The position numbers and the translations under genes are program-made. A DNA stretch of 64,000 nucleotides from Narcine bancroftii (taxonomy: Eukaryota): assembly GCF_036971445.1 (NCBI RefSeq), contig NC_091470.1, positions 278,070,001-278,134,000 on the forward strand, written 5' to 3'. The first letter of the stretch is position 1. Each line of letters starts with the position of its first letter. Under the pieces are notes generated by a model. It was not told the origin of the DNA. It made no database searches and saw only the letters and a list, made by a program, of their open reading frames with translations. Shown one piece after another: positions 7,757-52,058 of the stretch.

Positions 7757-8196
7757 ATGAAGGTGGGGAGCGCGGTGTTACCGGTTTTCCTGGCGTGGTC
7801 CTTCTGTGAGTGCCACATGTTTAGCTCAACTTAAGGTTCGTGCTGTCCGACGATCTGAAATAACTGTGATGTTCATTCAGCAGGTGGCTGCCACTCTCTA
7901 TCTTTGCACCAGCCCACGTTGTCCATTACCAGACCGACTGGGAAAATCGCCCGTTTTCGCTGCTTGATTGACACGGGAGATTTCATCAACCTTGTTGTGC
8001 ATTGGTACCGAAGTATTGAGAGCGGAGGCTTCCGGCGCATCCTCTACATCCAGGCAAACAAGGCGGCAGTGAGGGACGCGGGTTCTTCGGACAGATTCAC
8101 CGCTGAGAACTTGATCAAGGGAAACTTCAGTCTGCTGGATGTAAGAGACATAGAGGAGAGCGACGCGGGGGATTACTACTGTGCCACTTGGGACAC
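7757..8196 (+). CDS. TRGV: TCR gamma-like V segment 1 (leader 7757-7805, intron 7806-7880 or 7883, V exon to 8196)
   Basis: Leader MKVGSAVLPVFLAWSF + GTGAGT donor. Open V exon LHQPTLSITRPTGKIARFRC...VVHWY...RILY...DRF...DAGDYYCATWD followed by an RSS. Confidence 0.9.
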
Positions 8197-8235
8197 CACA
8201 CTGTCACAGTCGCACAGGAGCGCAGAACAAATACT
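8197..8235 (+). other. 23-spacer RSS of V1
   Basis: CACACTG (8197-8203), 23 nt, ACAAATACT (8227-8235). Confidence 0.9.
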
Positions 8236-9137
8236 CAGTACGGCGGGGTCTTGCAGTTCTTCCCGCTCCAGTCAGCTTAAACAAACCGAAATTCAGGTGG
8301 ACAGTCTCGACCCCAAACGTTGACTGTCTATTTCTCTCCATGGATGCTGCTCGATTTGTTGGGTTTCGCTCCAGTTTCCTTAAATCTCGAGTTCACTGGC
8401 TTCCTGGACTCAATCCTAGTAACAACGCAATGTATCCAGTGCCGGTGAACACCCAGGACACGAGAGCTCAGGGCTGCAGAACCGGGACTGTGCGCCGTAG
8501 GGAAAACGGGGACCTGGATCCATTGAGCTACGCTAGTAATTTCCGCGCTCAGGTTAAAAACTCTCACCACCTGGACTCAAGAAAATCAGAATAAAGAGCG
8601 CCGAGGCCTTACATAGAGTGGGATAAGTAAACGCAACGACCCGCAGCGAGTTGAGCTCCGAGTGTGGATAGAACAGGTTAAGAGGGGATCTGGTAGAAAA
8701 ACCTTGAGAGGAAGTCCTGGAAACAGTCAAATGGTCAGGCAACATCTGTGGAGCAAGAAACTGTTCAGGCGGTCGACCTAACTGGAGGTAAAACAAATCC
8801 GTTTCAGGTGGCGGAGGGTGAGAAGAGCAGAGAAAAAGAGAGCAAGGTGGATAGGTCAATGCGTCCATCTCTGATAGCATAAGGCCAGGTTTAGCACAGC
8901 GATTAGATGATCTGGTCATCAGTCACAGAAGGACCACTTGACGCTGGGCAATTCTTATAGTTCTGACACACACTTTTCAGTCTTTAGGCACCTTTATGAT
9001 TTGATTTCCATCATTAACCTGTTAAATCAGTGGTTTACCACCAGACTGTCCACGCAGCAACCACCTGTGCCGTTCTGTAACATAAGGAAATATTATAACC
9101 ATTTGCAATCAGAATACACTGTAAATGTAGTGGTGGT

Positions 9138-12100
9138 TGTCACATTTGTGGCCCGAAATGTGAAGTTAATAAAACATTAAACACAAGTTTTATCAGGTAA
9201 GCTTTATTCTCCCGTTTTCCTTTGTTCTCCTGCTTGTGTTCTTATCTCTCCCTCATACCACGTGACTTCCAGTACATCTCATACATATTCATTATCATGA
9301 CATCCCTCCTTTAATCAGAAATAAACTTTACCTTCACTTACCAATATCCCTGGAAACATACAAACATCGTAACTAATGGTAATACTATAACTCAACTACA
9401 TAAAATTTACTTCCTACAGCACTCATACATGCACTTTATGATATAAGATTAAAATACTGTCCCAAAGTTCTTATTAAAACTATGGCACAAAGTCTTCGTA
9501 TCGTTTGGGCACTTTCTGGTTTCGTTTCGGCCTGCCTGCGATATTGTCGTCGCTTCTCGGTTGTTCACTCTCAGCGTCGGAAATACTGCTCACCACGGCT
9601 TCGGGTGTTTCTGGAGCTCTAGTCACTTCATCAGGAGTGCTGGTAACTGCCTCTGGAACATCATCAGGTCTCTCAGTTTCAGCATCTCGTATTGGCCTTT
9701 CAACCTCTTCGCTCGATGTATCTCTGGACTGGTACCTTTTTACACCTGATACATTTCTCTTATACAGGACTCCAGTCAGAGACTTGACTGTCACCATACT
9801 GCCACTTCTGGATACGACAGTATAGGGTTGATGGTAATAAGGTGTGTCTAGCTTACCACCAGTTTCATGCCTCACTAGAACATTATCTCCTGGCATGATG
9901 TCTGAATACTTGGCTCCACGTTTCGAATCTGTGTACAGCTTTGTTGCACCTTTCTTTTCAGCATCGTGGTCCCTCATCTCCCGGTCGTCTCGGATTTCCT
10001 TTATTTCTGGCATTTTTGTGCGGATTTTTCTCCCAAAAAATGCTTCTGCAGGACTTTTTCCAGTGGTTGCATGAGGCGTTGCTCGATAGACAGCCACATA
10101 AGATAGCAATGCTTCTCACCAATTTTGTCCTTCTGCGTGTGCAATCCTCAATCGTTTTTCAATGGACTGATTTTGTCTCCCTACTTCTCCATTGGCTTGC
10201 AGCCATTTCGGAGTTACTTTATGATGGTGGATACCTGTGGTCCTCATGTATTCCGCAAATGTCTCTGAAATGAATTGTGGACCATTGTCAGAGTATAATG
10301 TAACAGGTAATCCATATCTTGCGAATATCTCTGCTAACGCTTGTATTGTTTTTTCAGTGGTTGTGGACTTCAACACCACGTACTCATAGTATCTGCTGTA
10401 GTAATCTATCACTACCATAATTGATTCACCCGTCGGTAAAGGTCCAAGAAAATCAACAGCTACGTCGATCCATGGTCCTGTCGGGAGTTGCGTACTCCGG
10501 ATCGGTTCTGGCGGATTACTCCTACTTGTGATTTGACATCCGTGACAAGTTTTAACAAATCTCTCTGCGTCTTTATCACAACCTGGCCACCATACCTTGG
10601 TCCTGAGGTTTTGCTTGGTACCAACAATACCTAGATGTCCTTCATGCGCTAAGGATACGATCTTCGGTCTCAATCTTTGCGGTATCACCAATCTGCAACC
10701 TCTTAATACACACTGTCCGATGCAACAAAGTTCATCTCTAATGGGAATGTAAGCCTTGTGAGTACACTTGTCCCATTGTCCACTCTGTATGCATTCTCTT
10801 ACTTCCATGAGTTCTGGATCACGTTCGGATTCTCTCTCGACTTCCTTCGTAGTCACAGCTTTCGGTGTCGACTGAAGCATACAAAGCTCTCTGTTTCTGT
10901 TCCCAATTCTGACTTGGATTGTGGACCTCCATCCTTCACCAATCTGGACAGTGGATCTGCAATGTTTGCTTTCCCTGCAATGTGGATTACTTTATATTTG
11001 TAGGGTTGTAGTCTGAGTACCCATCTCTCAATTCTGGCACATGGTTTGGATCTAGGTGCATAGATCACCTCTAATGGCTTATGATCTGTGATGAGTTCAA
11101 ATTCAATGCCGTATAAATATGCATGGAACCTCTCACAGGCCCATACAAGTCCGAGTGCTTCTTTCTCTGTCTGAGAGTATCTTCTTTCCACATCTGATAA
11201 CGATCTGCTGGCATAGGCAATGATTCTTGGTCCTCCATCATGCATCTGGACCAACACGGCTCCTAAACCAACTGGGCTGGCATCCGCTATGACTTTGGTT
11301 GATGCCACCGGATCATAATATCCAAGAGTTTTTGCATCTGTCAGGCTTTGCTTCAGCGCTGTGAACGCTTTCTTCTGCTCAGATCCAAAATGAAATGGTA
11401 CTCCTTTCCTGGTTAGTTTCCTTAGTGGTTCTGCCACTGTAGCGAAATTAGGAATGAACTTTGCACAAAAATTGACCAATCCCAGGAAACTCCTCACCTC
11501 TGTTGCGTTCTGAGGTGCACATGCCTCTGCAATAGCTTTCACCTTGGCCTCTGCAGGGTTTAGTCCTTCCCGTGAAAGTCTGTGTCCCATGAAGTCCATT
11601 TCTGACACACCGAACTGGCACTTGTTTCCATTCACGGTAAGGCCTGCCTCCTGTAGTCTAGACAGTACACGCCTCAACCGTTTGTCATGCTCTTCCTTCG
11701 TTGGTACATGAACTATGATGTCGTCAGAAATGTTGGCAACTCCAGGAATGCCTTGAATCACTCGATGGATTTCATACTGGTAGATCTCCGAAGCTGCATT
11801 GGACTTGCTTTTGCACTTCTTTGCAAAGTGGTCCTTACCTCTACACTTTCTGCAAACTTTGCCTTTGGCCGGGCAATATGGGTCTTTTCCAAAGTGACCT
11901 CGGTTTTCACATCGATAACACTCCACGTCCTGTGTCGACGCATATCTTGGCTGGTTATGGCGATGTGAGAGCCTCTTAATTTGCTGGCTTGAGTTGTCTT
12001 TCAGGGTCATGGTATGAAATTGCCCTTCAACAGCCTCTAATGCAGCAGTAATGGTTAAAGCATCAGTGAGTTCCAACTCACTCCCTCTTTCCAGTAGACG

Positions 12101-12879
12101 TCTTCTGAGTTTATCTGATCTGCAGTGCTGTACGACTTGATCCAGTTATTGGTGGTCGAAATCAGCTGGCATGTAATTGCATCCAACAGCTAGCTGGCGT
12201 AGTTTTGTCACGTACTGAGCAATCGTCTGGCCATCTTCTTGTCTCGTTCTCCGAAACAAATGGCGTTGAAATGAAGCATTCGGTGTCACTACATAGTGTG
12301 CGTTTAATGCATCTACCACTTTCCGGTACTCATCCTTTCTTCCAGTATTCAAAAGTGTCTTAAATGTTTCCTGAACTGCAGGTCCAGCAGTGAAAAGAAG
12401 TAACGCCCTTCTCTGTGCTTTTTCTTCAACTGTACCGGTATCTAGAAATAGGCCACGACTGTCGGCGTAGGATTCAAATTCTTCCAGCCATGCCTTCCAC
12501 TTCACACTTACAGTACTTGCATCACCCGTTGGGTCAAAATGAGCAATTCCACTATGTGTTAGAAAGTCACCGTCTGCCCCAGCCATGAGGAAATATTCCA
12601 GCCCCAAAAGTACTGAGTCACAGAGAAAATTCTTATCACCTTGAAGTTGTCTGTAATCCTCTGCAATCTTGTTTAATCTTTAATTTTCTTCAAGCTTCTT
12701 TCATCCTCATCGCCAATGTCACATTTGTGGCCCGAAATGTGAAGTTAATAAAACATTAAACACAAGTTTTATCAGGTAAACTTCTCAGTGGCTTTATTTT
12801 CCCGTTTCCTTTGTTCTCTTATCTCTCTCTCATACCACGTGACTTCCGGTACATCTCATACATATTCATTATCATGACA
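9138..12879 (-). mobile_element. Ty3/Gypsy LTR retrotransposon with both LTRs, internally deleted
   Basis: LTRs TGTCA...TGACA at 9138-9302 and 12717-12879; 5-bp TSD GTGGT; PBS TGGCGATGAGGATG (12702-12715, tRNA-Ser-like); PPT 9303-9314. ORFs encode gag, CCHC knuckles, RT/RNase H (DASPVGLGAVL) and integrase (HHCC, SDNGPQF), with frameshifts and stops. Confidence 0.95.
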
Positions 12880-13099
12880 GTGGTAGGTTCTATTTTGGCC
12901 CTCAGGAATGAATTGGATAAACATATGGTAAGAAAAAAATAGCAAAAATACACAGAAAGGTCCAGAAGGTAGAACTGGCAACTGGTCTGGTGGAGAATTG
13001 ACATGGACACAATGGGTCAAGAGATCTCCTGGGTCTAACTATTCTATGATTCTATCAGAGATGTCCACTGCATTCCTTCTCCACCTTCACAATGTCATG

Positions 13100-13540
13100 G
13101 AGTGTACAGAATGGGAATAGGACCTTTGCCCAAATTTGTCCCCATTGTCTATCTAAGCCAGTCCCATATCCCTCTGAATTTTCTATCCATTCACCTACCC
13201 AAATGTTTTTTCAAAGCATCTATTTGTCTCAAACATTTCCTCTTGCAGCTCATTCCATATATTCAATTTCCTCTAAAGTCCTATTTAAAGCTGTCCCTCT
13301 CATATTTAACATACCCTCTAGTTTTGTACTTTCCTATCCTAGGGTGGGGTTTGACTATTCACCCATCAATGCCCAGGATGATTCTATGTTCTTCATGAGG
13401 TTACACCTCATTTTCTTGCATTTCAGGGAGAAAAGTCCCAAACTATCCAGCCTCTCCTTATAATTCCAGTCTGCCAGTCCCAGTGACATTGATGTGAAAT
13501 GTTTGCACTCTTTTCAGTTTTATGATCTAATTCCTCAAGC
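13100..13540 (-). mobile_element. Decayed CR1 3' fragment
   Basis: Resembles the minus-strand CR1 3' ends at 22490-22900 and 59480-59950. Confidence 0.5.
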
Positions 13541-13567
13541 AAGACCACTATCACTCCACACACATTA

Positions 13568-13837
13568 TGTTAGAATAGGTTTGATGGGTACAAATAGAAT
13601 CAAGGCTGGATATTTATTATCAACAATCAGTGGTCTTTATTTATGCACAGGGGAACTCTCAAAATGGCACGCACTCACAGACCCAACAATAATACACAAA
13701 TAACTAAATATCAGATGCTGTGAAACATTCTCAGCTCCTGAGTGGGAATGCAAGAGTGAAACACACAATACCCACCACTCTCTCTATCTCTAGCAGGCAC
13801 AGCACACTAATAAACTGTAAATTAATTACAACTAACA
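13568..13837. mobile_element. Probable solo LTR
   Basis: Inverted termini TGTTAG...CTAACA, AATAAA on the minus strand, flanks ATTA/ACTA. Confidence 0.4.
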
Positions 13838-14329
13838 ACTATATGAATGAATTTAGTTTCCAGCATGGCCCTTGGGTCAGGATCCAGGAAGGACCCACTG
13901 CAGTCGGCCCTCCGGTGCCTCCTGTGGCCTGCAGCTTAGATTTAGTGATGATCTCCAAGCAGCAGCAAGAACAGAGAGAGAGAGAGCAAAAAACTCCATG
14001 TTTTGCTTTTTCAATGCAGGGCCCATCCACGTGAACTGCGAGGACCAACCTCACCTGTGGGAAGATCTAAAGCTTGATTGGCAGGTGAGGTCACTTCCAA
14101 TCTCAGGCTCACTGGAGAGGTCACGTGGCCCCACACAATTCAGTCTGACCAGGTCCCAGACCGAGAGGTTACATGGGCCTCCACAATCCACAATACAATA
14201 TTCCAAATGTGAGTTTACCAGCATCTTTTGCAGTTATGTCATGATGACCTATCTCCTATATTCAATGCCTTTCACCACCCTGACTACCTGCATCACCTCT
14301 TTAAGGCAATGATGTATCTGCATCCCTTG

Positions 14330-14957
14330 GCCTCTCCCACTGCAACTCGTACGCCTATGTGGAGTACCCAGATGGCAGGGAGGACACCATCTCCATCAGT
14401 GACATAGCACCCACCAGAATAGAGAGTCCATTGCCTCAAGTGCCCTACAAACCCCAGAGCTCATTCTTACCAACTCCAGCCAGGGCTTCAGGGGATCTGG
14501 CTCAGGAGGAAATTGCATTCCCCTCCACCTTTGAGCAGGAGACCCAGCCCACCTCTCCTCCCTCACAAGGGGACCAGGAGACTAAAGGAGCCCAAGGCCC
14601 TCTGGTGCTGAGGGAGTTAACAATCCCTCCACCAGGATCACCAGACCCCCAGACCGGTTAAATCTGTAAATTTGTAAATAATTGTATAATTTTTTTATTT
14701 ATTTTTCTTCTGAATCAATGTTCTGTCTTCATCCACAGACCCTAAATTCTGCAGGAAGGGGTGAGTGCAATGAACTGGGATTCACTGGTGGTGTGTTATA
14801 CTGATGGCTGGCTCCGTATATACCCATATATAACTCTGGTTTCTTGCCTAAACCCTGAGCCCTTCTGAAAACCACTTTAAGACCCTACCCTCAATTATAA
14901 GCTAATAAAAGCACGTGTTCTCCCTCCAGTCCTGAGAGCTTTTATTCAAGCTATAAT
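14330..14957 (+). mobile_element. Gypsy 3' fragment (integrase tail, PPT, LTR)
   Basis: EYPDGREDTISISDIAP, also seen in the elements at 24072 and 32950; PPT GGAAGGGGTGAG; LTR from TGCAATGAACTGGGATTCAC at 14766. Confidence 0.7.
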
Positions 14958-16074
14958 AGGATAGCTCAGAAGGCCTATGGGATGATGGGTTTCATTAATG
15001 TGGGAATGCGTTCTAGAAGTAAATCACAAAAATTTGTAGAGACTGATTGAAGTAAAAACACATATGCTGGAGAAACTCAATTGGTCAAATAGTGTCCTTT
15101 ATGTAGCAAAAGTAAAAATACATAACTGACATTTTGGGCTTGAGCCCTTCATCAAGGTATGGAAGAATGTTGGCAAATGTCCAAACAAAAGCGTTGGGGG
15201 GGGGGTAAAAGGGAGGAGGTGATAGGTGGAGAAGGGAGGGAGGGGACAGCAGTGATCAAGGGGAGGAGGGATGGCTGGGTGAGAGGAGAAGGTAGGGAGG
15301 CAGGAAAACTGGAAAAACTGGAAAGGGGAGAGGAAGGGGTGAAGGGAAGAGCAGGTTAGCAGAAACCATAAAAGTCAATGTTAATGCCATCTGGCTGGAG
15401 AGTGCCCAGATGGAAAATCAGATGTTGTTCTTCCAATTTGCAGGTGGTCTAGGTGGGATAGTACATAAGGCCATCGACAAATATGTGAGTGTGGGTGTGT
15501 GACTCAGAATGTTAAAAATCTAATAGTTGGTGGGAAGGTGGAGGAATCAAGGATGATTTGGATGCCACATCCCCACCCCAGCTGAAAAGCAGCTAGCCTC
15601 ACTCAAGAGAGCGCCTGGAGGTAGACACTTAAGTAATTCGTGGCACTCTGGTGGGCGCTGCTGTGATTGACTGAGAGGCCACCTCACTGAGGTCACAGAG
15701 AGGTGGCCCCTCAGTATCAGCCAGTGCCGGGCCCACAACAAGTGCCACTAATTACTTAACTAACTGACTGCCTCGACTCAGGCTCTGTGTGCTCTTCGCA
15801 AGCTGCTTTACAAATTTAACCCCCACTGGGAGTCCAGCACTCACTCCCCAATCCTCCACGTTCCTCAATTCCTCTCACCACCAAACTATTAGATATTTAA
15901 CGTCCAATTCAGTCAGAGAGACATTAAAAATTTAATAGTTTGGTGGTTGTTGTTGTTAAGGTAGAGGATTGTGGGGGGGGGGGGGGGTGGGTGGAAGAGA
16001 GACCCGATGAGCACACCACCCGGGCCAGCAGCTGAGGCACCTGACGACCCTGCGCTAACAGCCCACGCCGGCTG

Positions 16075-16269
16075 CCCCTGCCCTGACGTCCCTCGCCGGG
16101 GAGCAGGGGCAGCTAGGAGGGGAGCTGTCAGGCGCTAGCCAGCTGATTGTCATCCCCTTAGCAGACACTTTCATGTGGTGCCGGGGGTCCTCAGTGCTCC
16201 GGCGATTATCCCTCCTGGAGTATAATATGCTGCTTTACATCGGGGGATTTTGGCCATCTGAAAGTGTCT
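16075..16269 (+). mobile_element. Partial non-autonomous DNA-transposon-like repeat (Harbinger-like MITE end)
   Basis: Homologous in inverted orientation to 17897-18170; terminus ...CCATCTGAAAGTGTCT next to TTA. Confidence 0.45.
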
Positions 16270-16288
16270 TTAAGTGTCTGTATTCAGC

Positions 16289-16570
16289 AAAGAGGTGGGC
16301 GTCTGTCTCCACTGTATTGAACAGGCAGTGCTGCAAAGTCTATTGTCGGGCGCGATCCTACCACTGATGGGCACGGGGGCTTTGACCTGCTCTGTTTCCG
16401 ACCTGACCCGATGTACACAATCTGGTGATGCCCGATTCCTCCAGAGACACCATATCGATGCCCAACTTAGTGAGGACACCAGCTCAACACAGGCCGCAGC
16501 AGCCCACAACTCCTGATCTCAAGCGATGCCACAGCATCCTGAGTAGCCGGATTACAGGCGCGCTCCAGCA
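16289..16570 (-). ncRNA. Divergent 7SL (SRP) RNA-derived sequence, near full length, probably a pseudogene or retro-copy
   Basis: Minus strand is colinear with 7SL: GCGCGCCTGTAATCCGGCTACTC...ATCGCTTGAG..CAGGAGTT..GGGCTG...GGTGTCC.CACTAAGTT.GGCATC.ATATGGTG...CAGGTCGGAAACAGAGCAGGTCAAA (helix 8, 16387-16405)...GGATCGCGCC...AATAG...GAGAC...CTCTTT. Confidence 0.85.
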
Positions 16571-16830
16571 GAGGACAACGTGTGTCACCCAGTAAGGCAG
16601 ACAGCAGGCACTAAATTAACTTAATGCAGGAGAGCCACAAACACTGCTGAGTGTTTCCAGCACTTAGTCCTCTAATTTGGGGTAAAGATCAGTTTTAATT
16701 ACAGGGGTGGGGGGCGACAGGGCTGGAGGGGCTGAATTACCCGTATTCGTTTGCTCCAGAGGAAATCGGTGAGATCATTTAACCGAATTTCTCCAATGGG
16801 TGATAATAAGAAAAAGACCGGCGTGTCCCA

Positions 16831-17071
16831 CCCCTCACGCATCTGCTCCAATGAAAGAGGGCACCGACAGAATAATGCCAAGAATGGAAGCGTACGAGGT
16901 AAACCACGGTGTCTGCAGACGTTCGTGTTTTACTGTTGATACGTCTGAGGCGGCGGAAGGAGGAGGAGAGGTAAAGGGGCGGGCTCTTCAATATTACTCG
17001 GGCAGACAGTGGATTCTGCTCAGTTTCCAACCAGCTGTTTGGCTCAATCGCCCCGATCGAGTGGAGGAAAC
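16831..17071 (+). promoter_or_regulatory. Putative V2 promoter (CCAAT and GC box)
   Basis: CCAAT 16848-16852 and GGGGCGGG 16976-16983. Both are retained in the otherwise diverged V5 upstream region. Confidence 0.5.
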
Positions 17072-17503
17072 ATGTGGCTGAATTCCTGGCTCCTGGCACT
17101 GACTTTCGGCTGTGAGGTTCCGAGGGTCCTTCAGCTTTAATCACTCTGTCCCGCCGTCGCGCAGCCGATTTATCGCTCTCTGCTTTTTTTTTGTTGCAGA
17201 TGGTTGTTGGGCTCAGACTCTAATCCAGCCCCAAGCATCGATTACCAAGTCTATCGGTAAAACCGGGAGAATCCGGTGTGATGTGAAGGGTGCAACGATT
17301 AGCAGCACAGATCCCATTCATTGGTACCAACAGAAACCCGGCCAGCCGATCACCAGGATACTCTATTTTGGGGACAGCGTGATCCGGGATTCGGGATTCG
17401 GGAGTGCATTCAACGTTGAAAAAAATGATCCCTCCAAACTCTCTCTCGTCATTGAAGTAACGGCAGAACACTCGGCCACTTATTACTGTGGCTTCTGGGT
17501 GTA
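17072..17503 (+). CDS. TRGV: TCR gamma-like V segment 2 (leader 17072-17111, intron 17112-17199, V exon 17200-17503)
   Basis: Leader MWLNSWLLALTFG + GT..TTGCAG intron. V exon QTLIQPQASITKSIGKTGRIRC...IHWYQQKPGQPITRILY...SATYYCGFWV. Confidence 0.92.
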
Positions 17504-17542
17504 CACAGCGTGCAACAGGAACTCCAGCTCTGTACAAAAACC
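17504..17542 (+). other. 23-spacer RSS of V2
   Basis: CACAGCG, 23 nt, ACAAAAACC (17534-17542). Confidence 0.93.
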
Positions 17543-17896
17543 CGAGCCGCCTGTCAGAGACACCACCTGGTCCAGAGAGGGCACCGACCCGCAGCTCAGG
17601 CAGAGATTACCCTTCCTCGGGGTGAGGAGCTGGGGTCTGGACAAGAGGCGGGGACTGAACCAGGAGCTTCTGAAGCAGCCGGATTTGTCGCTACAAAAAG
17701 GAAGCGGCCTGGTGCTGTCCACGTTTCTGGAGGCCCTCTTCCTATGGAGGGCTGGATGAGGGGACTCTGTCACCCGGGACACGCCGCGGGCCGGCTGGTG
17801 GGGTGGCAGAGGAGCTCTTCCAGACCATACTGATCCCCTGGCGTGGTGAGCTGCGCACTGTCCTCTGACTTCCCAAACTCCCGACCCTGCCCCATT

Positions 17897-18640
17897 AGGC
17901 ACTTTCAGGTGGCCAAATGCCCCGCTTGTAAAGCCGCATATTATGGCAATATGTGGCTGTCGGGAGACCACTTGAATGCGCAGGAGACGCCTGCAAGGCA
18001 AACTTTGTAACCCTTCGCCAAGAGGGATAATCGCTGCAGAACAGTGGTCCCCCCAGCCATCTGAAAGCACCCGCCTGAAAGTGGCTGAGGGGATGACAGT
18101 CAGCTGGCAAGTGCCTGACAGCTCCCCTCCCAACTGCCCCTGCCCCCCAGTGCGGGACATCCCCACACTGATACCCCTGCCCACTCTCTCCCAACAGCCC
18201 AAAATCAGTCTCCATACTGTTGGGCGGCCGGCGCGGTCTGTAGGGGTTGGGGCAGCCGGCATCGGCAGTAGCACAACCTGCGCCGGGCGCCCCTACCGCT
18301 GCAGCCCGAGCTGTCCGTTCCATCCTCTCCAGCCGGCGCCGGCCACCTGAAGCACTACAGCCCTCTCCACCCGTACCTACCCCGACAGCCCCAACCACAA
18401 AAGCCTGCACCGGCCACCACAAATACTAGAGCCCGCGCTGGCAGCTCCAATCCCTACAGCCCACACCGCCAGCTCCAATCACAAAAGCCCGCGCCGGACC
18501 CCCCTCCCACCCCCCACAGTGTGGGAACTAATTTTGGGCTGTTGGGAGAGCGGGGCAGCGGGATCAGTGTGGGGACATCTCCACGCTGATAGCCCGCGCC
18601 AGCTGTCCCAACTCTGACAGCCGGAAGGGATAGGAGCCAG
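17897..18640 (-). mobile_element. GC-rich non-autonomous DNA-transposon-like repeat (Harbinger-like), partial
   Basis: Begins TTAGGCACTTTCAGGTGGCC, has internal inverted similarity (18170-18220 vs 18515-18575) and is homologous to 16075-16269. Confidence 0.45.
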
Positions 18641-18644
18641 AGTG

Positions 18645-21042: not shown

Positions 21043-21517
21043 AGACTTAAATTTTAACAACACAATTCACAAGATTATTACCTCTGACAATGAGGTTACA
21101 TTTATAACCCTGTTTGTCTGTTTATTGTTTGTTTCTCTGTCTGACTATAAGCAAATTATTGTCCTAACATGATGGGTTGATTACGCCAAATAACCTTAAA
21201 AGGTATATAGACTTAAAGGTGTGTAAAGTAAAAGGTTTTAATGTTGTGTTGCCCTTGGCAGAAGTATGCACTCTACTGAGTGATTTGTGTGCCAGAACAT
21301 TTTCTTTTATATTTGAAAAAGATAATCAAAGATTGATGTGTTACGTATTCTTGCAATTTAAAATAAATTTAGCAGTTTAAAGTTTTGTGCTTTTCATTTT
21401 TTCTACAAAACATGTCTTTGAAAGTCAAAGTTGGCAATTTGGGTGGGGGATGGGGGGGACGGAGGTCCAAATAGTTGGCCTTGCCTAGGGCGCTAAATAG
21501 TCTGGTACCAGTCCTGG

Positions 21518-22485
21518 CCTTAGGGATCAATTCTGGGACCATTGTTTGTTGTCTGTTTCAATGATCTGGATGATAATGTGGGAAATTGGATCAGCAAGTT
21601 TGATGATGATATAAAAGATTGGGGGAATTATGGACAGCGCAGAAGGATTTCAAAACTTGCAGAGGGATCTAGACCAATTGGAAAAATGGGCCAGGAAATG
21701 GGAGATGGAATTAAATGCAGACAAATGTGAGGTGAAGGACAAACCAAGGTAAGACATACACATTAAATGGTAGGCCACTGAAGAGTGCGAAGGAACAAAG
21801 GGATCTGGGAATATAGATAGATAATTCCCTGAAAATGGTGTCACAAATAGATAGGGTTGTAAAGAAACCTTTTGGCACCTTGGCATTCATAAATCAAAGT
21901 ATTGAGTACAGGAGTTGGGATGTTATGGTGAGGTTGTATAAGACATTGGTGAGGCCATATTTGGAGTATTGTGTGCAGTTCTGGTTGCCAAACTACAGGA
22001 ACAATATATCAGTAAGATTGAAAGAGGGCAGAGAAGATTTAATAGGATGTTGCCGGGTCTTCAGGAGTTGAGTTACAGGGAAAGTTTAAACAGGTTGGGA
22101 CTTTATTCCATGGAGCATAGAAGAATGAGGGGAGATTTGATAGAGGTTTACAAAATTATGAGTGGTACAGACAGAGTAAATGTAAGTAGGCTCTTTACCC
22201 TTAGATTAGGAGAGATAAATACAAGAGGTCATGGGTTTTAGGGTGAAAGGAAAAAGGTTTGGGGGATCAATGGGGGAGCTTCTTCACTCAGAAAATGGTG
22301 GGAGCGTGGAAAAAGTTGCTATCTGACATGGTAAATGCAGACTCACTCTTAAGTTTTAAGAATAAATTGGATAGATAGATTGGAGGGTTATGGAATGGGT
22401 GCAGGTCAATAGGAGTAACAGAATGATAATTTGGCACAGACGAGAAGGGCCAAATGGACTGTTTTCTGTGCTGTAGTGTTACAGA
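21518..22485 (+). mobile_element. 5'-truncated CR1 LINE
   Basis: RLYKTLVRPYLEYCVQFW...RRMRGDLIEVYKIM and a CR1 3' UTR. Confidence 0.85.
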
Positions 22486-23570: not shown

Positions 23571-23575
23571 CTTTT

Positions 23576-26470: not shown

Positions 26471-27030
26471 GTGAAGGCATCATGCAGACTGCTACGTCAA
26501 CCATGCCTTAAGAAATGACTTATCCTGGACACAAAACACTTGTCAGAATGACTGCACTACCTGAAAAGACTGAGGCAGGTAAGGCTACCAGCCACTATCC
26601 TGTCAACTTTTTACAGGAGCTTGATGGAGAGAGTCCTGGCCTGGTATGATTGCAGTAGAGCATCAGATGGGAGGTCAATCCACTAGACCATAGGAGCAGT
26701 AGAGGATCACTGGGGCACACAGCATCTTTCAGCTATTCCCGTCGGGAGAGAGATGAAGGAGTGTCAGAACGAGAACTACCAGGCTGAGAAATGAACTGCT
26801 CATACAAACTCTCTATGATTCAACAGTTTATTTAACAGTCATATTAATTGATTTTAATATTTGTATGTAAGTACTGTGAACATGTATGGTTTGTCTGGAT
26901 GTGTGTTTGCAGTGAGGACTGGAGAACGCTGTTTCGTCCGTAGTACTCGTATGATAAATGAACCTGAACAATAATTAAAAAGAGCTTCACGTGTAGACTG
27001 GAGGGAAAGGGACTCGGAAGAAGATGTCTA

Positions 27031-27156: not shown

Positions 27157-27564
27157 ATGTCGCTCCGTTATCTAGTTGCTGCCTTGTTGATCTTCCTTGG
27201 TAAGTATGTCCACCATACTTTTTTTTTGCTACCCCTTCTCCTTCACGTGCCTTCACTGTCCTTCATTTGCAGCTGGATACGTTACCGGGGATTTGAACCA
27301 GCCTCAGATGTCCATCACCAAGCCCGTGACCACAACGGTGAAGATATGGTGCGAGTCCACGGCCGCCTATTACATCCACTGGTACCAGCAGCGCCCCGAC
27401 CAGGCGCCTACAAGAATCTTATTTTACAACGAGGGGAAAACCGTGCGGGAATGGGGAATACCCATCAAATTTTCAGCCGAGGCGAGCGGCTTTTCCTTCT
27501 CGCTTGTGATTGATAACGTCAATCTGACTGATGCGGCCACGTATTACTGTTCCCGATGGGTTGG
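27157..27564 (+). CDS. TRGV: TCR gamma-like V segment 3 (leader 27157-27199, intron 27200-27272, V exon 27273-27564)
   Basis: Leader MSLRYLVAALLIFL + GTAAGT donor. V exon DLNQPQMSITKPVTTTVKIWC...IHWYQQRPDQAPTRILF...DAATYYCSRWV. Confidence 0.92.
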
Positions 27565-27603
27565 CACAGTGTGAAATAACGACTGGAGGGGCATACAAAA
27601 ACC
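27565..27603 (+). other. 23-spacer RSS of V3 (perfect consensus)
   Basis: CACAGTG, 23 nt, ACAAAAACC (27595-27603). Confidence 0.97.
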
Positions 27604-28749: not shown

Positions 28750-29185
28750 ATGAAGCCGCTGCTGACTGTCATTTTATGGGCCTCCCTCCTCGGTCAGGGG
28801 TTTGGATTGTAATTTCTTTTTAAACACTGATGCGTTCTGAAATAATTCGAACTCTTTTTAACTCTCTTCTCCCGCAGGTAAATCGGCGGCTCAAACACTG
28901 ATCCAGTCCCAACGATCGATCACCGTAGCTCCCTCCAAATCTGTCCACTTCTACTGTGAGATCCAAGGACTAGATTTCGAGAAAGCTCTTATCCATTGGT
29001 ATCGGCAGAGACCGGGACAGGAACCGCAGAGGCTCCTGTATTTTATGAACCCAACCAATTATCAGAAGGATGTGCCCGAGAAGCGATTAACTGTTAGCAA
29101 AGTACCCGAGAGTAAATCGTGCAAACTGCTCTTGACGAGTGTCCGGGCGGAAGATGCTGGCACGTATTTCTGTGCTTACTGGATG
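28750..29185 (+). CDS. TRGV: TCR gamma-like V segment 4, not in the ORF track (leader 28750-28792, intron 28793-28877, V exon 28878-29185)
   Basis: Hand translation: MKPLLTVILWASLL|GKSAAQTLIQSQRSITVAPSKSVHFYCEIQGLDFEKALIHWYRQRPGQEPQRLLYFMNPTNYQKDVPEKRLTVSKVPESKSCKLLLTSVRAEDAGTYFCAYWM, no stops. Confidence 0.92.
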
Positions 29186-29224
29186 CACAATGGCCAAGGG
29201 CGACGGGCGACCAGTGCATAAACC
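29186..29224 (+). other. 23-spacer RSS of V4
   Basis: CACAATG, 23 nt, GCATAAACC (29216-29224). Confidence 0.85.
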
Positions 29225-33429: not shown

Positions 33430-33508
33430 ATTTCATAGCTGGTTTAATAAAGCTGTGCGATAGTACAAATTCTATCACCAATGTGTATATGTACTGATGG
33501 TAGTGTAG

Positions 33509-40533: not shown

Positions 40534-41414
40534 TTTAAACTTTATTTATTCGTTCAAAAAACAAATAATATATGACATATACAACAATTAACCATAAACA
40601 TGAACATTATTTTTTATATATAAAAAAAGAAAAAAAGAGAAAAGAAAAGAACACCCCCCCCCTCTTCACCCAACTCTCCTTAGGCGAGCCATAAAGAAAG
40701 AAAAAAGAAAAAATATTAAAGAAAAATTAAATATGCATATTAAGATCTAATCAATGTAAATTGAAATGTAAATATTCTGAATATAACAACCACTTATTAA
40801 TTAAAAATGATAATTATCACATGAAACATACATAATTTTTTTCCATTATTAAACAATATTTCATCTCATTATGCCATCTATTAATATCAATCATATTTGT
40901 ATCTTTCCACGTACTAGCAATACATTTTTTCGCTATGGATAAAGCTAAATATACAAAAGCAAGCTGAAACTTATCTAATCCCAAGGCTTTCAAAGGTTGC
41001 AAACTACCCAATAAAAATACTGTTGGATCTAAAACTATTTTAATCTTATACAGATATTCTAAAAACGATTGAATTTTCTTCCAAAAAGATTGTATATCTA
41101 TACATGACCAAACAGCATGAAAAAAAGTTCCAACCGTATCACTAGATCTAAAACACAAATCTGATTCACGAAAACCATACTTTTTTAATTTTTCAGGTGT
41201 TAAGTATAATTGATGTAAAAAAAAAATTATAGTTAATCATTGCATAATGAGTATTTATCAATCTAGTTACACTATCATAACAGATATCTAACCAACCATC
41301 TTCGGAAAATCCACTTCCCATTTACTTTTAGATCTATCCCAACCCTTTTTATCCATACCAACCTGTAATATTTGATACATAGATGAAATATAACCCTTCT
41401 CTGGTACCTTCATA
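40534..41414 (-). mobile_element. 5'-truncated L1 of a second family nested in the host L1 RT
   Basis: ORF 40817-41158 (GTFFHAVWSC); TSD AAATAAAC(A/T)GATTTT at 40519-40533 / 41415-41429, at the ISLFADD motif. Confidence 0.85.
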
Positions 41415-42783
41415 AAATAAACTGATTTTATTCTCCTTCTCCTTTATTTTTATCCCTTTTATTTTTTTTTCTATTCTTATCAGTTCTGCCAATGGTTCTA
41501 TTGCTAAAGCGAACAGTGAGGGGAATAATGGACATCCCTGTCTAGTTGACCTACTTAATTTAAATTTGCTCGATACATATCCATTTACTGTTACCTTTGC
41601 CAATGGTCCACTATATAATGCTTTAATCCAATTAATATATTTTTCAGGTAGATTGAACCTCTGTAATACTTTAAATAAATAATTCCATTCTATTCTGTCA
41701 AAGGCTTTTTCTGCATCTAAAGCAACAGCCACTGTTGGCTTCTTATTTCCTTGAACTGCATGAATTAGATTAATAAGTTTACAGACATTATCCGCCGTTC
41801 GTCTTTTTTTAATAAATCCAATTTGATCTTGTTTTACTATTTTTGGAACACAATTGGCCAATCTGTTTGCTAATAATTTTGCTATTATCTTATAATCTGA
41901 ATTAAGTAGAGATATTGGTCTATATGATGCTGGTGTTAGTGGATCCTTCCCTGTCTTTTGTATTACTGTAATTATTGCTGTCTTACATGAATCTTGCAAG
42001 TTTTGTGTTTCTTCTATCTGGTTCATTACTTCCAGGAGAGGAGGAATTAATAACTCTTTAAATGTTTTATAGAATTCTATTTGGAATCCATCCTCTCCAG
42101 GTGTTTTATTGTTCGGCAGCTTTTTTAATATATCCTGTACTTCCTCTATTTCAAATGGTTTTATCAGTTTGTTTTGTTCCTCTTCTTGCAATTTCAGCAG
42201 TTCAATTTTAGCTAAAAACTTTTCTATTTTATCATCTTTCCCCTCATTCTCAGTTTGGTATAATTGTTCATAAAATTCCTTTAAGTTTTCATTAATCTCT
42301 ATTGGGTTATATGTAATTTGTTTGTCCTTTTTCCTTGATGCCAATACAGTTCTTTTAGCTTGTTCTGTTTTAAGTTGTCAGGCTAATATTTTATTTGTTT
42401 TTTTTTCTCTCCTAGTTCGTAATACTTTCGCTTTATTTTCATTATGTTCTTCTTCACCTTGTACATTTGTAATGTTTCGTATTTTATTTTATTTGTCTGT
42501 CATTTCTCTCCTTTTTATTATATCATCCCTTTTTACTAGTTCCTTTTCTGTACTTACTATCTCCCTTTCCAACTGCTCTATTTCCCGATTGTAGTCCTTT
42601 TTCATCTTAGTTACATAACTTATTATCTCTAACGAAGCCTCTAATAAGGCTTTCATTGCATCCCATAATATAAATTTGTCTTTCACTGATTCCGTATTTA
42701 TTTCAAAATTTGTTTTAATTTGGCATTCAATAAACTCTCTAAATTCCTGCCTTTTAAGTAGCATGGAGTTTAACCTCCATCTA

Positions 42784-45700
42784 AAGGGGAGGTGGCGGCC
42801 CCGGCCTCGGTCGAGTGAGGCAGGCGGAGGCCCCGGTCCGGGCAGAAAGTAGCAGGCGGTGGCCCCGGTCCGGGCACAGGGAAAGAAGCGGCGGCCTCGG
42901 ACCTGGTCCGGGCAGTATGGACCGACCTAGGAGGGGAGGCAGACCCCTACAGCCCGGGTAAGAAACCTGCATAGGAGAAGGCCACTCCGATATAAAACCT
43001 ACGACCCAAGGACCTCGCTGCCACGTCCCACCTTGCTTGGCCACGGCACACGAACCATGGGTGTAAAGGGTGGGGCCAGTACTGCGCGCACTGCACTCCA
43101 CCTAAAAGCTCCTTTGCGCAGGCCCGAGGACAGGTCCACGTCCTCCCCCTCCACGTCCTTCCCCTCAAAAGATGCTCACAAACTCAAGCTAGCATGCTGG
43201 AACATCAGAACCATGCTAGACAAGGCTGACAGCCACCGACCTGAACATCGGTCTGCCCTCATTGCACATGAACTCCTCAGACTTGACATCGACATAGCCG
43301 CTCTCAGTGAAGTCCACCTGGCAGATGTAGGCAGCCTCCAAGAACGCGGCACGGGCTACACACTCTACTGGTCTGGCAAGCCTATGGATGAACGACGCCT
43401 ATCTGGTGTAGGCTTCATGGTCAAGAACTCCATTGCCTCCAAACTCGAAAACCTCCCGACAGGCCACTCGGACCGGATCATGTCCATGCGACTCCCCCTT
43501 CAAAACAAGCGTCGCATCACCCTCATCAGTGTCTATGCTCCAACCCTCCAGGCGGAACCAGCAGAAAAGGACAAGTTCTACACTGACCTGCGCAACCTCA
43601 TTCAATGCACCCCTACAGCCGACAAGGTTGTCATCCTTGGCGACTTCAACGCTCGCGTCGGCAAAGACTCAGAAACCTGGCCAGGAATCCTGGGCAAGCA
43701 TGGTGTCGGCAAGTGCAATGACAATGGGCGCCTCCTGTTGGAGCTCTGCGCAGAACAGCGACTTGTCATTACAAACACCCTTTTTCAGTAGAGGGACAGC
43801 CTGAAGACTACCTGGATGCATCCCCGATCCAAACACTGGCACCTCCTGGACTACGTCCTGGTGCGAGAAAGAGACAAACGAGATGTGCTCCACACCAGGG
43901 TCATGCCCAGCGCGGAATGCCACACTGACCACCGGCTGGTTCGCTGCAAGCTCAACCTTCACTTCAAGCCAAAGACCAGGAACAGTAAAGCCCCCAGAAA
44001 GAGGTTCAATGTTGGAAACCTGCAGTCAGACGAAATGAGAGGAAACTTCCAGGCAAACCTCAAAGCAAAGCTCGAGGATGCAATCCGCCTCACGGACTCA
44101 TCCCCTGAAACCCTCTGGGATCAGCTGAAGACTACCATACTGCAATCCACTGAAGAGGTACTGGGCTTCTCCTCCAGGAAAAACAAGGACTGGTTCGACG
44201 AAAACAGCCTGGAAATCCAGGAGCTGCTGGCAAAGAAGCGAGCTGCCCACCAGGCTCACCGTACAAAGCCGTCCTGGCCAGAGAAGAAACAAACCTTCCG
44301 TCGCGCATGCAGCCATCTTCAGCGCAAACTCCGGGAGATCCAAAATGAGTGGTGGACTAGCCTCGCCAAGCGAACCCAGCTCAGCACGGACATTGCGACT
44401 TCAGGGGTTTTTATGAGGCTCTAAAGGCTGTGTACGACCCCTCACCCCAAGTCCAAAGCCTGCTGCGCAGCTCAGATGGCAAAGTCCTCCTCAGCGACAA
44501 GATCTCCATCCTCAACCGATGGTCAGAACACTTCCAATCTCTTTTCAGTGCCAACCGCTCAGTCCAAGATTCCGCCCTGCTCCAGCTCCTCAACAACCCC
44601 TAAGGCTAGAGCTGGATGAGGTCCTCACCCGGGAAGAGACATATAAGGCAATTGAACAACTGAAAAGTGGCAAAGCAGCAGGTATGGATGGAATCCCCCC
44701 CAGAGGTCTGGAAGGCTGGCGGCAAAACCCTGCATGTCAAACTGCATGAGTTTTTCAAGCTTTGTTGGGACCAAGGAAAACTGCCTCAGGACCTTCGTGA
44801 TGCCATCATCATCACCCTGTACATAAACAAAGGCGAGAAATCAGACTGCTCAAACTACAGGTGAATCACGCTGCTCTCCATTGCAGGCAAAATCTTCGCT
44901 AGGATTCTTCTAAATAGAATAATACCTAGTGTCACCGAGAATGTTCTCCCAGAATCACAGTGCGACTTTCGCGCAAACAGAGGAACTACTGACATGGTCT
45001 TTGCCCTCAGACAGCTCCAAGAAAAGTGCAGAGAACAAAACAAAGGACTCTACGTCACCTTTGTTGACCTCACCAAAGCCTTCGACACCGTGAGCAGGAA
45101 AGGGCTTTGGCAAATACTAGAGCGCATCGGATGCCCCCCAAAGTTCCTCAACATGGTTATCCAACTGCACGAAAACCAACAAGGTCGGGTCAGATACAGC
45201 AATGAGCTCTCTGAACCCTTCTCCATTAACAATGGCGTGAAGCAAGGCTGCATTCTCGCACCAACCCTCTTTTCAATCTTCAGCATTATGCTGAACCAAG
45301 CCATGAAAGACCTCAACAATGAAGACGCTGTTTACATCCGGTACTGCATGGATGGCATTCTCTTCAATCTGAGGCGCCTGCAAGCTCACACCAAGACACA
45401 AGAGAAACTTGTCCGTGAACTACTCTTTGCAGGCGATGCCGCTTTAGTTCCCCATTCAGAGCCACCTCTTCAGCGCTTGACGTCCTGTTTTATGGAAACT
45501 GCCAAAATGTTTGGCCTGGAAGTCAGCCTGAAGAAAACGGAGGTCCTCCATCAGCCAGCTCCCCACCATGACTACCAGCCCCCCCACATCTCCATCGGGC
45601 ACACAAAACTCAAAACGCTCACCAGTTTACCTATCTCAGCTGCACCATTTCATCAGATGCAAGGATCGACAACGAGATAGACAACAGACTCGCCAAGGCA

Positions 45701-46415
45701 AATAGCGCCTTTGGAAGACTACACAAAAGAGTCTGGAAAAACAACCAACTGAAAAACCTCACAAAGATAAGCGTATACAGAGCCATTGTCATACCCACAC
45801 TCCTGCTCGGCTCCGAATCATGGGTCCTCTACCGGCATCACCTACAGCTCCTAGAACGCTTCCACCAGCGTTGTCTCCGCTCCATCCTCAACATTCATTG
45901 GAGCGACTTCATCCCTAACATCGAAGTACTCGAGATGGCAGAGGCTGACAGCATCGAGTCCACGCTGCTGAAGATCCAGCTGCGCTGGGTGGGTCACGTC
46001 TCCAGAATGGAGGACCATCGCCTTCCCAAGATCGTGTTATATGGCGAGCTCTCCACTGGCCACCGTGACAGAGGTGCACCAAAGAAGAGGTACAAGGACT
46101 GCCTAAAGAAATCTCTTGGTGCCTGCCACATTGACCACCGCCAGTGGGCTGATATCGCCTCAAACCGTGCATCTTGGCGCCTCACAGTTTGGCGGTCAGC
46201 AACCTCCTTTGAAGAAGACTGCAGAGCCCACCTCACTGACAAAAGACAAAGGAGGAAAAACCCAATACCCAACCCCAACCAACCAATTTTCCCCTGCAAC
46301 CACTGCAACCGTGTCTGCCTGTCCCGCATCGGACTTGTCAGCCACAAACGAGCCTGCAGCTGACGTGGACATTTACCCCCTCCATAAATCTTCGTCCGCG
46401 AAGCCAAGCCAAAGA
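42784..46415 (+). mobile_element. Near full-length RTE-clade LINE (APE + RT), frameshifted, nested in L1
   Basis: CWNIRT, ALSE, SVYAPT, LGDFNAR, TDH endonuclease motifs, then an RT nearly identical to 33509-35039. The host L1 frame PPRIY|RWRL rejoins exactly. Confidence 0.95.
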
Positions 46416-50830: not shown

Positions 50831-51421
50831 ACTTGTACTCGAGGGATTCACTTGATCTCAGCTACCCTCACATGAAGTATGGTCCCTTTTTCCTGGCAAA
50901 CGCTTAATATCCCACATCATCCATAATTCTGACAGCCTTGAAACGGGAGGTGGAGAGTGGGAAACTGCTGCCGCCTCGGCGAAAGACACCGAAACTTTGA
51001 TCTGTAAATGCGGCGCTTCACATCCAACGACCACTCAAACAATAAATTTGGGCAGAGCCCATGACTCCATTGGAAGTTTCGCAGGACTTTAAACAGGATG
51101 TACTAGCTAACCTGGGTAAAATGAGCCGCCGCATCTATCTTTGAAACATATCCATGATTCAGTGGAAAACGAATTCTGCAATTCTCGCTGATTATCAGTA
51201 TTGATAGGGTTAAAGTGCGAGGGGAGGTGGGCAATCCAGTTTCCCTCGATGAACGAGGCCAAGTTGAAAGAGATGGGGCAGGCAGACGGTTCCTTGTCTG
51301 GCGGGGTACAGAACACTCATCAGGAGGTTATTCGGGGACCCGCATGTCGCGGGACGGTGGAAGAGCAGAGCTCATCTGTACCGAACATGCTGTCATCTCC
51401 TCGGTCGCTGGGAGTGCACCG

Positions 51422-51583
51422 CCCCTCGCACATCTCCACCAATATGAAACAAATAATGCGAAGAATGGATCCGGATACGGGTGGGTCGAGAAACGGGGCG
51501 GGTTCAGCACCGAGACGTATATCACTCGGGCTCAGTTTCCAACCAGCTGTTTGGTTCAATCGCCCCGATCGAGTGGAGGAAAC
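51422..51583 (+). promoter_or_regulatory. Putative V5 promoter (CCAAT and GC box)
   Basis: CCAAT 51439-51443 and GGGGCGGG 51495-51502, matching motifs upstream of V2. Confidence 0.5.
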
Positions 51584-52019
51584 ATGTGGCTGAATTCCTG
51601 GCTCCTGGCACTGACTTTCGGCTGTGAGGTTCCGAGGGTCCTTCAGCTTTAATCACTCTGTCCCGCCGTCGCGCAGCCGATTTATCGCTCTCTGCTTTTT
51701 TTTTTGTTGCAGATGGTTGTTGGGCTCAGACTCTAATCCAGCCCCAAGCATCGATTACCAAGTCTATCGGTAAAACCGGGAGAATCCGGTGTGATGTGAA
51801 GGGTGCAACGATTAGCAGCACAAATCCCATTCATTGGTACCAACAGAAACCCGGCCAGCCGATCACCAGGATACTCTATTTTGGGGACAGTGTGAACCGG
51901 GATTCGGGATTCGGGAGCTCCTATAACGCTGGAAAAAACGAACGCTCCGAATTCTATCTCTCAATAGAAAAACTAACGGCAAAACAGTCGGCCACTTATT
52001 ACTGTGGCTTCTGGGTGTA
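51584..52019 (+). CDS. TRGV: TCR gamma-like V segment 5, paralog of V2 (leader 51584-51623, intron 51624-51712, V exon 51713-52019)
   Basis: Same leader as V2; open V exon ending SATYYCGFWV. Confidence 0.92.
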
Positions 52020-52058
52020 CACAGCGTGTAACAGGAACTCCAGCTCTGTACAAAAACC
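52020..52058 (+). other. 23-spacer RSS of V5
   Basis: CACAGCG, 23 nt, ACAAAAACC (52050-52058). Confidence 0.93.

What the first reader, a model, noticed from the sequence alone, without database searches (positions are those of the whole stretch)
7757..52058. Five intact RAG-recombinable TCR gamma-like V segments from four distinct families, one missed by ORF calling
Seen: five leader-intron-V-23RSS units on the + strand, no pseudogene V, no J or C. V4 is invisible in the ORF track. Known: TRG V segments carry 23-RSS and end YYC-x-x-W, and sandbar shark TCR gamma was reported as a small translocon that hypermutates. Inference: this is most or all of a chondrichthyan TRG V array, stretched out by retroelements, with J and C downstream of the window.
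Basis: partly seen in the sequence, partly recalled or inferred. Interest (0 to 1): 0.7.

Follow-up and report, generated by a model that had tools for sequence, protein, structure and literature searches.

The report
Ray's complete T-cell gamma receptor locus
This is the full set of five variable gene segments of an electric ray's single T-cell receptor gamma locus, which likely builds receptor genes by ordinary cut-and-join recombination with two J segments and one constant gene just downstream; it is an ordinary shark-type locus, whose one oddity is a pair of segments that are near-identical except on one predicted outer face.

Summary
Confirmed and ordinary. Five open leader-intron-V-23RSS units (four families) lie at the stated places; no other V lies within 200 kb on either side. 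Beyond the window are two 12-RSS J segments, one three-exon constant gene with a hinge cysteine and a TCR-type transmembrane lysine, and an inverted MENTAL-domain (STARD3NL-type) gene, the 3' border known for TRG loci. Contigs of four runs (one study) splice J to C and V1's leader to its exon. So this is the whole V array of a batoid TRG translocon (5 V, 2 J, 1 C, 81 kb) of the sandbar-shark plan (5 V, 3 J, 1 C). The V tree alone does not separate it from Ig light chains; hypermutation and V4 use were not tested. One extra: V2 and V5 differ at 8 places in about 530 bases but at 21 in a 67-base FR3/HV4 patch whose synonymous divergence is as high as its amino-acid divergence, likely gene conversion that spared the patch. 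The scan noted a similar shark TRG locus before on other DNA (e1-10347457).

The parts
7757..8235 (+). V1: leader 7757-7805, intron, V exon 7884-8196, 23-RSS 8197-8235
   Evidence: leader-to-V joint in 2 of 4 runs, pieces end within 6 nt of the heptamer in 4 of 4; sister to a Callorhinchus V, 99/93
17072..17542 (+). V2: leader 17072-17111, intron, V exon 17200-17503, 23-RSS 17504-17542; one FR3 codon shorter than V5
   Evidence: a 154-nt contig with no other letter covers its own patch in 1 of 4 runs
17018..17615 (+). Tract near-identical to 51530-52131 (leader, intron, FR1-CDR2, RSS, 3' flank), likely gene-converted
17405..17471 (+). V2 divergent FR3 patch (D strand, DE loop = HV4, E strand, EF turn in the V5 model)
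   Evidence: 21 of 29 V2/V5 differences; 0 of 20000 permutations reach this; pS 0.385, pN 0.263; model
27157..27603 (+). V3: leader 27157-27199, intron, V exon 27273-27564, perfect 23-RSS 27565-27603
   Evidence: contigs begin at the acceptor in 2 of 4 runs, one runs on through the RSS, i.e. unrearranged
28750..29224 (+). V4: leader 28750-28792, intron, V exon 28878-29185, weaker 23-RSS 29186-29224
51584..52058 (+). V5 (J-proximal): leader 51584-51623, intron, V exon 51713-52019, 23-RSS 52020-52058. The rest of the locus lies beyond the window, on G000:C5: J1 278151188-278151272, J2 278151399-278151483, C exons 278154976-278155281, 278156042-278156119, 278157934-278158067, MENTAL-domain gene exons 278194190-278198663 (-)
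   Evidence: an unspliced contig with two V5-specific marks in 1 of 4 runs; J, C and neighbour:
51918..51987 (+). V5 FR3/HV4 patch, counterpart of 17405-17471, inside the shared tract 51530-52131

Best explanation
These five segments are the complete V array of an electric ray's single T-cell receptor gamma translocon (5 V, 2 J, 1 C, about 81 kb), in which RAG likely joins a 23-RSS V to a 12-RSS J by deletion and the joined exon is spliced to a three-exon constant gene with a predicted transmembrane segment. Shown: the segments, their signals, same-strand order, open frames, the J-C and C-exon splices, V1 leader splicing, a single C copy, the MENTAL neighbour. Inferred: rearrangement itself (from the 12/23 layout and from V1 and V2 contigs that stop just before the heptamer), pairing with a delta chain and CD3 (from hinge Cys and transmembrane Lys), use of V4. 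V2 and V5 are likely old duplicates whose leader-to-CDR2 and RSS ends were made alike again by gene conversion while a 67-nt FR3/HV4 patch was left out (about 0.65); whether selection spared it is untested. Retroelement insertions account for much of the long spacers.
For: RSS and chance control. Open spliced frames. Only these 5 of 21 genome matches to V2 lie on C5; no further V in 464 kb. Two J and one C downstream, no D-like double signal seen. C exon has one close copy among 24 matches, the next at 35% or less. Transmembrane exon reads Y-T-L-L-L-M-K-S-V-L-Y, as in shark and ray chains P0013 and P0081. Splice joints. Inverted MENTAL gene 36 kb past the C, the 3' border in alligator, opossum and mammals (PMC7349638, passages). 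Of 30 look-alike proteins whose names were looked up, 5 carry TRG-type names, one more has a TRG-named cluster member, none a TRA/TRB/TRD name (TVC1 read as TRG from recall). Best single-stretch PDB sequence matches of V2 are human Vgamma9; in the fold search Vgamma9 has the best TM-score, rmsd and identity among the 49 rows shown (1hxm_B 0.87, 1.5 A, 36%). Conversion: 21 differences in 67 nt against 8 in the other 531; pS 0.385 in the patch against 0.019 elsewhere; weak older likeness upstream of the tract, score 63 against at most 55 in 300 shuffles; in the patch V5 shares 15/23 and 13/23 residues with V's of two other animals but 9/22 with V2, outside it 76/78.
Against: The tree does not resolve a TRGV clade: the genome's 3 IgL-like V rows nest among the TRG-like rows; the AU test merely fails to reject one clade (p 0.421). 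The 60 best PDB matches of the C exon are immunoglobulins, none a TCR, and the fold search ranks VpreB and light chains first by E-value. Public names of V2, V5 and 4 other look-alikes are light-chain-like. No amphiphysin exon was found 5' of the array (capped searches, inconclusive). No V-J junction was read letter by letter. All runs are one study, RNA is a guess of the tool and one may be the assembled animal. The patch rests on 15 synonymous sites and few other species; the downstream flank shows no older likeness.
Confidence: 0.95

Rival explanations
1. An immunoglobulin light-chain or VpreB-like locus, as the automatic names say.
For: Source names 'immunoglobulin iota chain-like' for V2 and V5; PDB matches of C; fold ranks; IgL-like V rows nest in the tree.
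Against: The C gene has a hinge and a transmembrane exon with Lys, spliced in 4 of 4 runs; light chains have none (established knowledge). The 3 IgL-like V's examined on C9 are germline-joined V-J without RSS. VpreB does not rearrange (recalled). MENTAL neighbour.
Confidence: 0.02
2. A TCR alpha, delta, beta or an orphan TCR-like locus rather than TRG.
For: 23-RSS V and 12-RSS J also fit TRA; no TRA/TRB/TRD V could be put in the tree (7 of 13 fetched loci gave no V domain); 5' amphiphysin not found.
Against: No D seen, only two J, V ends in C-x-x-W, TRG-named nearest named relatives, inverted MENTAL gene at the 3' end.
Confidence: 0.03
3. For the V2/V5 patch: a recent duplication followed by fast adaptive change or decay of V2's FR3, or import of the patch from a third, now lost V, instead of conversion around an old patch.
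For: V2's patch is the more derived one (10/22 and 8/22 to the two nearest foreign V's against V5's 15/23 and 13/23) and lacks a codon.
Against: pN/pS in the patch is below 1 (0.263/0.385), which selection on amino acids after a recent duplication does not give; no donor among V1, V3, V4 or in 464 kb; upstream flanks are about as diverged as the patch. A lost donor cannot be excluded.
Confidence: 0.3
4. V2 and V5 are two haplotypes of one gene placed in tandem by the assembler.
For: About 98.5% identity over most of a 600-base tract.
Against: Flanks differ on both sides, V3 and V4 lie between them, and one run holds both a V2-patch contig and a V5-marked contig, though a heterozygote would too.
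Confidence: 0.03

Closest known systems
Sandbar shark (Carcharhinus plumbeus) TRG translocon, Chen et al. 2009 (paper not held; known only from passages of PMC7349638 and PMC5931798)
   Same: Five V upstream of a single J-C cluster with one C; small germline repertoire.
   Different: Two J here against three; four families here against five named V genes; 81 kb here (the shark's roughly 32 kb is recalled, not seen in a call); hypermutation is reported there and untested here.
Nurse shark TCR gamma (PMC5931798, section 5 read)
   Same: Few V families, same chain type.
   Different: Nine predicted V genes from cDNA; hypermutation called minimal in that figure's title.
Single-cluster TRG loci of alligator, opossum, rabbit (PMC7349638, passages)
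   Same: V(n)-J(n)-C order, three-exon C (alligator, opossum), STARD3NL at the 3' end (inverted in alligator and rabbit).
   Different: AMPH at the 5' end was not found here (inconclusive); fewer V.
Human Vgamma4 versus Vgamma2 and BTNL3 binding through HV4 (PMC6868513 passages; PMC7608190 passages)
   Same: Related V genes whose germline HV4 residues differ; in humans that difference decides BTNL3 binding.
   Different: No ligand is known for the ray segments; CDR2, which also counts in humans, is nearly the same in V2 and V5; the analogy is by position only.

Membership tests
TRG (T-cell receptor gamma) locus | V segments with leader exon, V-set exon and 23-RSS | tested here: met
   5 of 5
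TRG (T-cell receptor gamma) locus | J segments with 12-RSS and FGxG, no D segment | tested here: met
   2 J; no D-like double signal in RSS scans between V5 and C
TRG (T-cell receptor gamma) locus | Constant gene of C1-set, hinge with Cys and transmembrane exon with a basic residue | tested here: met
   spliced in 4 of 4 runs
TRG (T-cell receptor gamma) locus | STARD3NL inverted at the 3' border | tested here: met
   MENTAL exons on the - strand 36-40 kb past the C; paralogue identity inferred, START domain not searched
TRG (T-cell receptor gamma) locus | AMPH at the 5' border (PRKDC in birds) | tested here: inconclusive
   BAR and SH3 searches scored 150 of 730 and 150 of 273 candidates, none near the locus; 5 BAR hits fetched looked like endophilin (label recalled)
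TRG (T-cell receptor gamma) locus | V and C group with known TRG sequences in a tree | tested here: inconclusive
   V2/V5 group with ray V's (97/95), V1 with a Callorhinchus V; no resolved TRGV clade; p-AU 0.421; no C tree made
TRG (T-cell receptor gamma) locus | Somatic V-J joints with junctional diversity | tested here: inconclusive
   V1 pieces stop within 6 nt of the heptamer in 4 of 4 runs, one with 28 further letters that do not fit; junction letters not shown
TRG (T-cell receptor gamma) locus | Protein pairs with TCR delta and CD3 on T cells | not testable with these tools
   needs cells
Hypermutating shark TRG | cDNA V regions carry point and tandem mutations against the germline | not testable with these tools
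   only assembled contigs were served, which drop rare variants; WRCY/RGYW counts of 13-24 per exon had no control
Immunoglobulin light chain / VpreB | Single C domain without transmembrane exon | tested here: not met
   hinge and transmembrane exons are spliced on
V segments with RSS-associated CTCF site | CTCF motif 20-30 bp behind the RSS | tested here: not met
   recalled 14-letter consensus: best 4-5 mismatches behind 5 of 5 RSS; 13 window matches at 2 mismatches against 12.4 by chance, none behind an RSS; a consensus, not a matrix

The most novel reading that the evidence does not exclude
Selection keeps two different HV4 faces on one V scaffold in this ray: gene conversion repeatedly homogenises V2 and V5, including CDR1 and CDR2, but is purged where it crosses the D-E strands, because each face reads a different butyrophilin-like ligand, as human Vgamma4 and Vgamma2 differ. 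That would carry germline HV4-based ligand reading back to cartilaginous fish and give a natural swap pair to test it.
Probability: 0.2. Interest if true: 0.65.

Novelty: new member of a known kind. Interest (0 to 1): 0.27.

Why it matters
As a locus it adds a complete batoid TRG germline (5 V, 2 J, 1 C) and corrects automatic light-chain labels. With so few, so distant V families any cDNA can be assigned to its parent, so it is a clean place to test whether rays hypermutate TCR gamma as sandbar sharks do. The V2/V5 pair is a ready-made contrast for asking whether HV4-based ligand reading predates bony vertebrates; butyrophilin genes are reported in cartilaginous fish (PMC12841164, listing and two passages). 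None of this would surprise a specialist unless the ligand link were shown.

Tried and rejected
More V or pseudo-V: none in 464 kb; 2 short tblastn hits at E 0.49-0.73 set aside as noise. Third J: a relaxed scan of 52100-85000 gave 6 signals, 2 real J and one motif-only hit at 61458 without J features. Amphiphysin: BAR and SH3 searches inconclusive. Outgroup V's: 7 of 13 fetched loci (L045-L048, L051, L053, L054) gave no V domain by my patterns and were left out of the tree, as was the camel TRGV P0112 (pattern miss). Longer homologues of the C exon: 0 of 28 candidates scored. Donor for either patch among V1, V3, V4: none. CTCF site behind the RSS: not supported. A shared one-codon gap of V2 and a Mobula V: the patches are no more alike otherwise (6/21 against 7/22), so not taken as common origin. 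Lack of the usual Asp before A-x-Y-Y-C in V2/V5 is not a defect: other ray V's and Amia TRGV3 lack it too. No RNA holder listed on record. No earlier scan note near this place. Chen 2009 not held; Chen 2012 not sought. Not-in-print checks: species name with 'T cell receptor' from 2023 on, none of the 10 listed held the species name; HV4 + butyrophilin + shark + TCR gave 2 reviews, the passages of neither on shark HV4; gene conversion + TRGV + HV4 gave 13 papers, 12 listed, none on fish by title; TRGV + ray/skate gave none on this locus among 20 of 174 listed. Subscription journals are largely missing from the library, and no supplements were read; those of PMC7349638 hold a map of the shark locus that may bear on the size comparison.
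Full report
Observation. A scan for RSS with at most 3 mismatches found five 23-spacer signals on the + strand, at 8197, 17504, 27565, 29186 and 52020, each right after Y-[YF]-C-x-x-W. Two hundred shuffles gave 0.19 on average and never more than 2. All five exons are Pfam V-set. Each has an ATG leader, a phase-1 GT-AG intron and an open spliced frame. Nine of ten pairs are 47-55% identical in DNA and V2/V5 90%, so four families. V4 gives only a 58-aa ORF with start-codon calling but is listed stop-to-stop.

Extent. A genome search with V2 gave 21 matches among 66 candidates; the 5 on contig C5 are these five. tblastn and blastn with all five over the window plus 200 kb on each side found no further V or V remnant. 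The array is therefore complete as far as these searches see.

What lies downstream. In coordinates extended past the window (G000:C5 place minus 278070000), J1 (81216-81272) and J2 (81427-81483) carry 12-RSS and FGxG. A C1-set exon (84976-85281), a hinge exon with a cysteine (86042-86119) and a transmembrane exon with Y-T-L-L-L-M-K-S-V-L-Y (87934-88067) follow, then AATAAA at 88389. The C exon has one close copy among 24 genome matches. Three of six MENTAL-domain matches lie on the opposite strand 36-40 kb further on; STARD3NL is the 3' border of TRG in alligator, opossum and placental mammals (PMC7349638, passages). Which MENTAL paralogue this is was not tested, and amphiphysin was not found 5' (capped, inconclusive). 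From V1's ATG to the poly(A) signal the locus spans 80.6 kb. Of 16 other long window ORFs that I picked and scanned, 11 match reverse transcriptase, RNase H, integrase, gag or endonuclease families and 5 match nothing; 64% of 7757-52058 matches other places within the 464 kb.

Transcripts. Four runs of one study, guessed to be RNA and held as contigs, carry the C region. They join J2 to C (4 of 4), J1 to C (1 of 4, starting upstream of the RSS, so a germline transcript) and the C exons to each other (4 of 4), all at GT..AG; the contigs end 11-15 nt past AATAAA in 3 of 4. On 7700-27699, V1's leader is spliced to its exon in 2 of 4 runs and V1 pieces stop within 6 nt of the heptamer in 4 of 4; V3 contigs begin at the acceptor in 2 of 4, one running on through the RSS; one run holds a contig over V2's own patch with no other letter, ending 2 nt before the heptamer, and an unspliced contig with two V5 marks. 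One X3 contig has 425 letters in front of the whole J2 that do not show on V1-V3 or on the part V5 shares with V2; by elimination it is likely V4-J2-C, an inference only. Contigs drop rare variants, so hypermutation is untested.

Identity. Proteins that hold the V5 and V2 exons letter for letter are named by their source 'immunoglobulin iota chain-like [Narcine bancroftii]': an electric ray, with an automatic VpreB-like label. The nearest relatives of V5 come from sawfish, devil ray, zebra shark and an unnamed animal at 55-68%. Of 30 look-alikes looked up, 5 carry TRG-type names, 1 more through a cluster member, 5 light-chain-type names, none TRA/TRB/TRD; three light-chain-named chains have the same transmembrane lysine motif and are thus likely receptors, not light chains. 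Sequence and fold alone are ambiguous: the C exon's 60 best PDB matches are immunoglobulins, the V5 model (pLDDT 89) ranks VpreB and light chains first by E-value though Vgamma9 fits best by TM-score and identity, and in a 39-row tree the genome's three IgL-like V's nest among TRG-like rows; holding the 33 TRG-like rows together is not rejected (p-AU 0.421) but not shown. No TRA/TRB/TRD V could be added. The TRG call therefore rests on architecture, the membrane-type C, the neighbour gene and the named relatives together.

How it works. Shown: same-strand V(23) and J(12) signals, open frames, splicing. Inferred from established V(D)J biology: RAG deletes the DNA between one V and one J, the joint is diversified, the transcript is spliced leader-VJ-C, and the chain pairs with a delta chain through the hinge cysteine and with CD3 through the lysine. 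Ten V-J pairs is all the germline offers, fewer than the sandbar shark's 15.

The V2/V5 pair. The two share a tract of about 600 bases with sharp ends. Of 29 differences, 21 fall in 67 bases of FR3; 0 of 20000 permutations cluster so. The patch covers strand D, the DE loop (HV4; strand names assigned by me), strand E and the EF turn of the model. Synonymous divergence is 0.385 in the patch and 0.019 elsewhere, non-synonymous 0.263 and 0.011, so the patch looks old, not fast. Upstream of the tract a weak likeness remains, above 300 of 300 shuffles; downstream none does; V2's upstream shows none to that of V1, V3 or V4. In the patch V5 is closer to V's of two other animals than to V2. The simplest reading is an old duplication and later conversion on both sides of the patch (about 0.65). 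Two conversion tracts can miss a stretch by chance or because it was already too diverged, so selection is not shown. In mammals HV4 decides butyrophilin binding (PMC6868513, PMC7608190, PMC7348870, passages), which makes the pair testable but is an analogy by position.

Comparison and verdict. The plan is that of the sandbar shark locus, 5 V, 3 J, 1 C (seen only as cited in PMC7349638 and PMC5931798). I found no paper on this species' locus or on HV4-sparing conversion in fish in the searches made, in a library that lacks most subscription journals. New member of a known kind; interest 0.27.

Noticed in passing
window 9480-12679 (-): Broken Ty3/Gypsy-type LTR retrotransposon remnant (gag, RT/RNase H, integrase in separate frames; clade label mine) between V1 and V2; its family is heavily covered in the run contigs.
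   Followed up: partly
window 33451-34980 (+), 42931-46363 (+), 39405-42377 (-): LINE copies with reverse transcriptase and, at 42931, an endonuclease ORF, in the 22-kb gap between V4 and V5; one appears to lie inside another element on the opposite strand.
   Followed up: partly
window 28273-28515 and 62347-62871: Minisatellites of period 35 (7 copies, about 230 bases upstream of V4's start) and period 33 (16 copies, 96% alike).
   Followed up: no
L041:1-272 and window 27272-27699: Spliced germline transcripts: one runs through J1's RSS into C, one through V3's RSS, as expected of an open locus before rearrangement.
   Followed up: partly
L041:399-426 versus L041:188-215: J2 has a poor heptamer and a good nonamer, J1 the reverse; J2 is the one joined to C in all four runs, though contigs cannot rank use.
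   Followed up: no
L043, L052 (G000:C12) and L050 (G000:C9): Single-exon V-J-type domains without RSS, several copies on a 1.9-Mb contig, forming their own branch apart from IgL; possibly NCR3/UrIg-like or germline-joined genes (labels recalled).
   Followed up: no
L042, L044, L049 (G000:C9): Germline-joined light-chain-like V-J exons, each a few kb from a C1-type exon.
   Followed up: no
P0013, P0081, P0154: Public proteins named immunoglobulin light chain that carry a TCR-type transmembrane segment, likely misnamed TCR gamma chains of zebra shark, stingray and bowfin.
   Followed up: partly
window 17543-17615 and 52059-52131: The 3' flank shared by V2 and V5 reads, in translation, somewhat like the flank of a devil ray V (P0014; by eye), hinting at a conserved non-coding element; a CTCF consensus fits it only with 4 mismatches.
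   Followed up: partly
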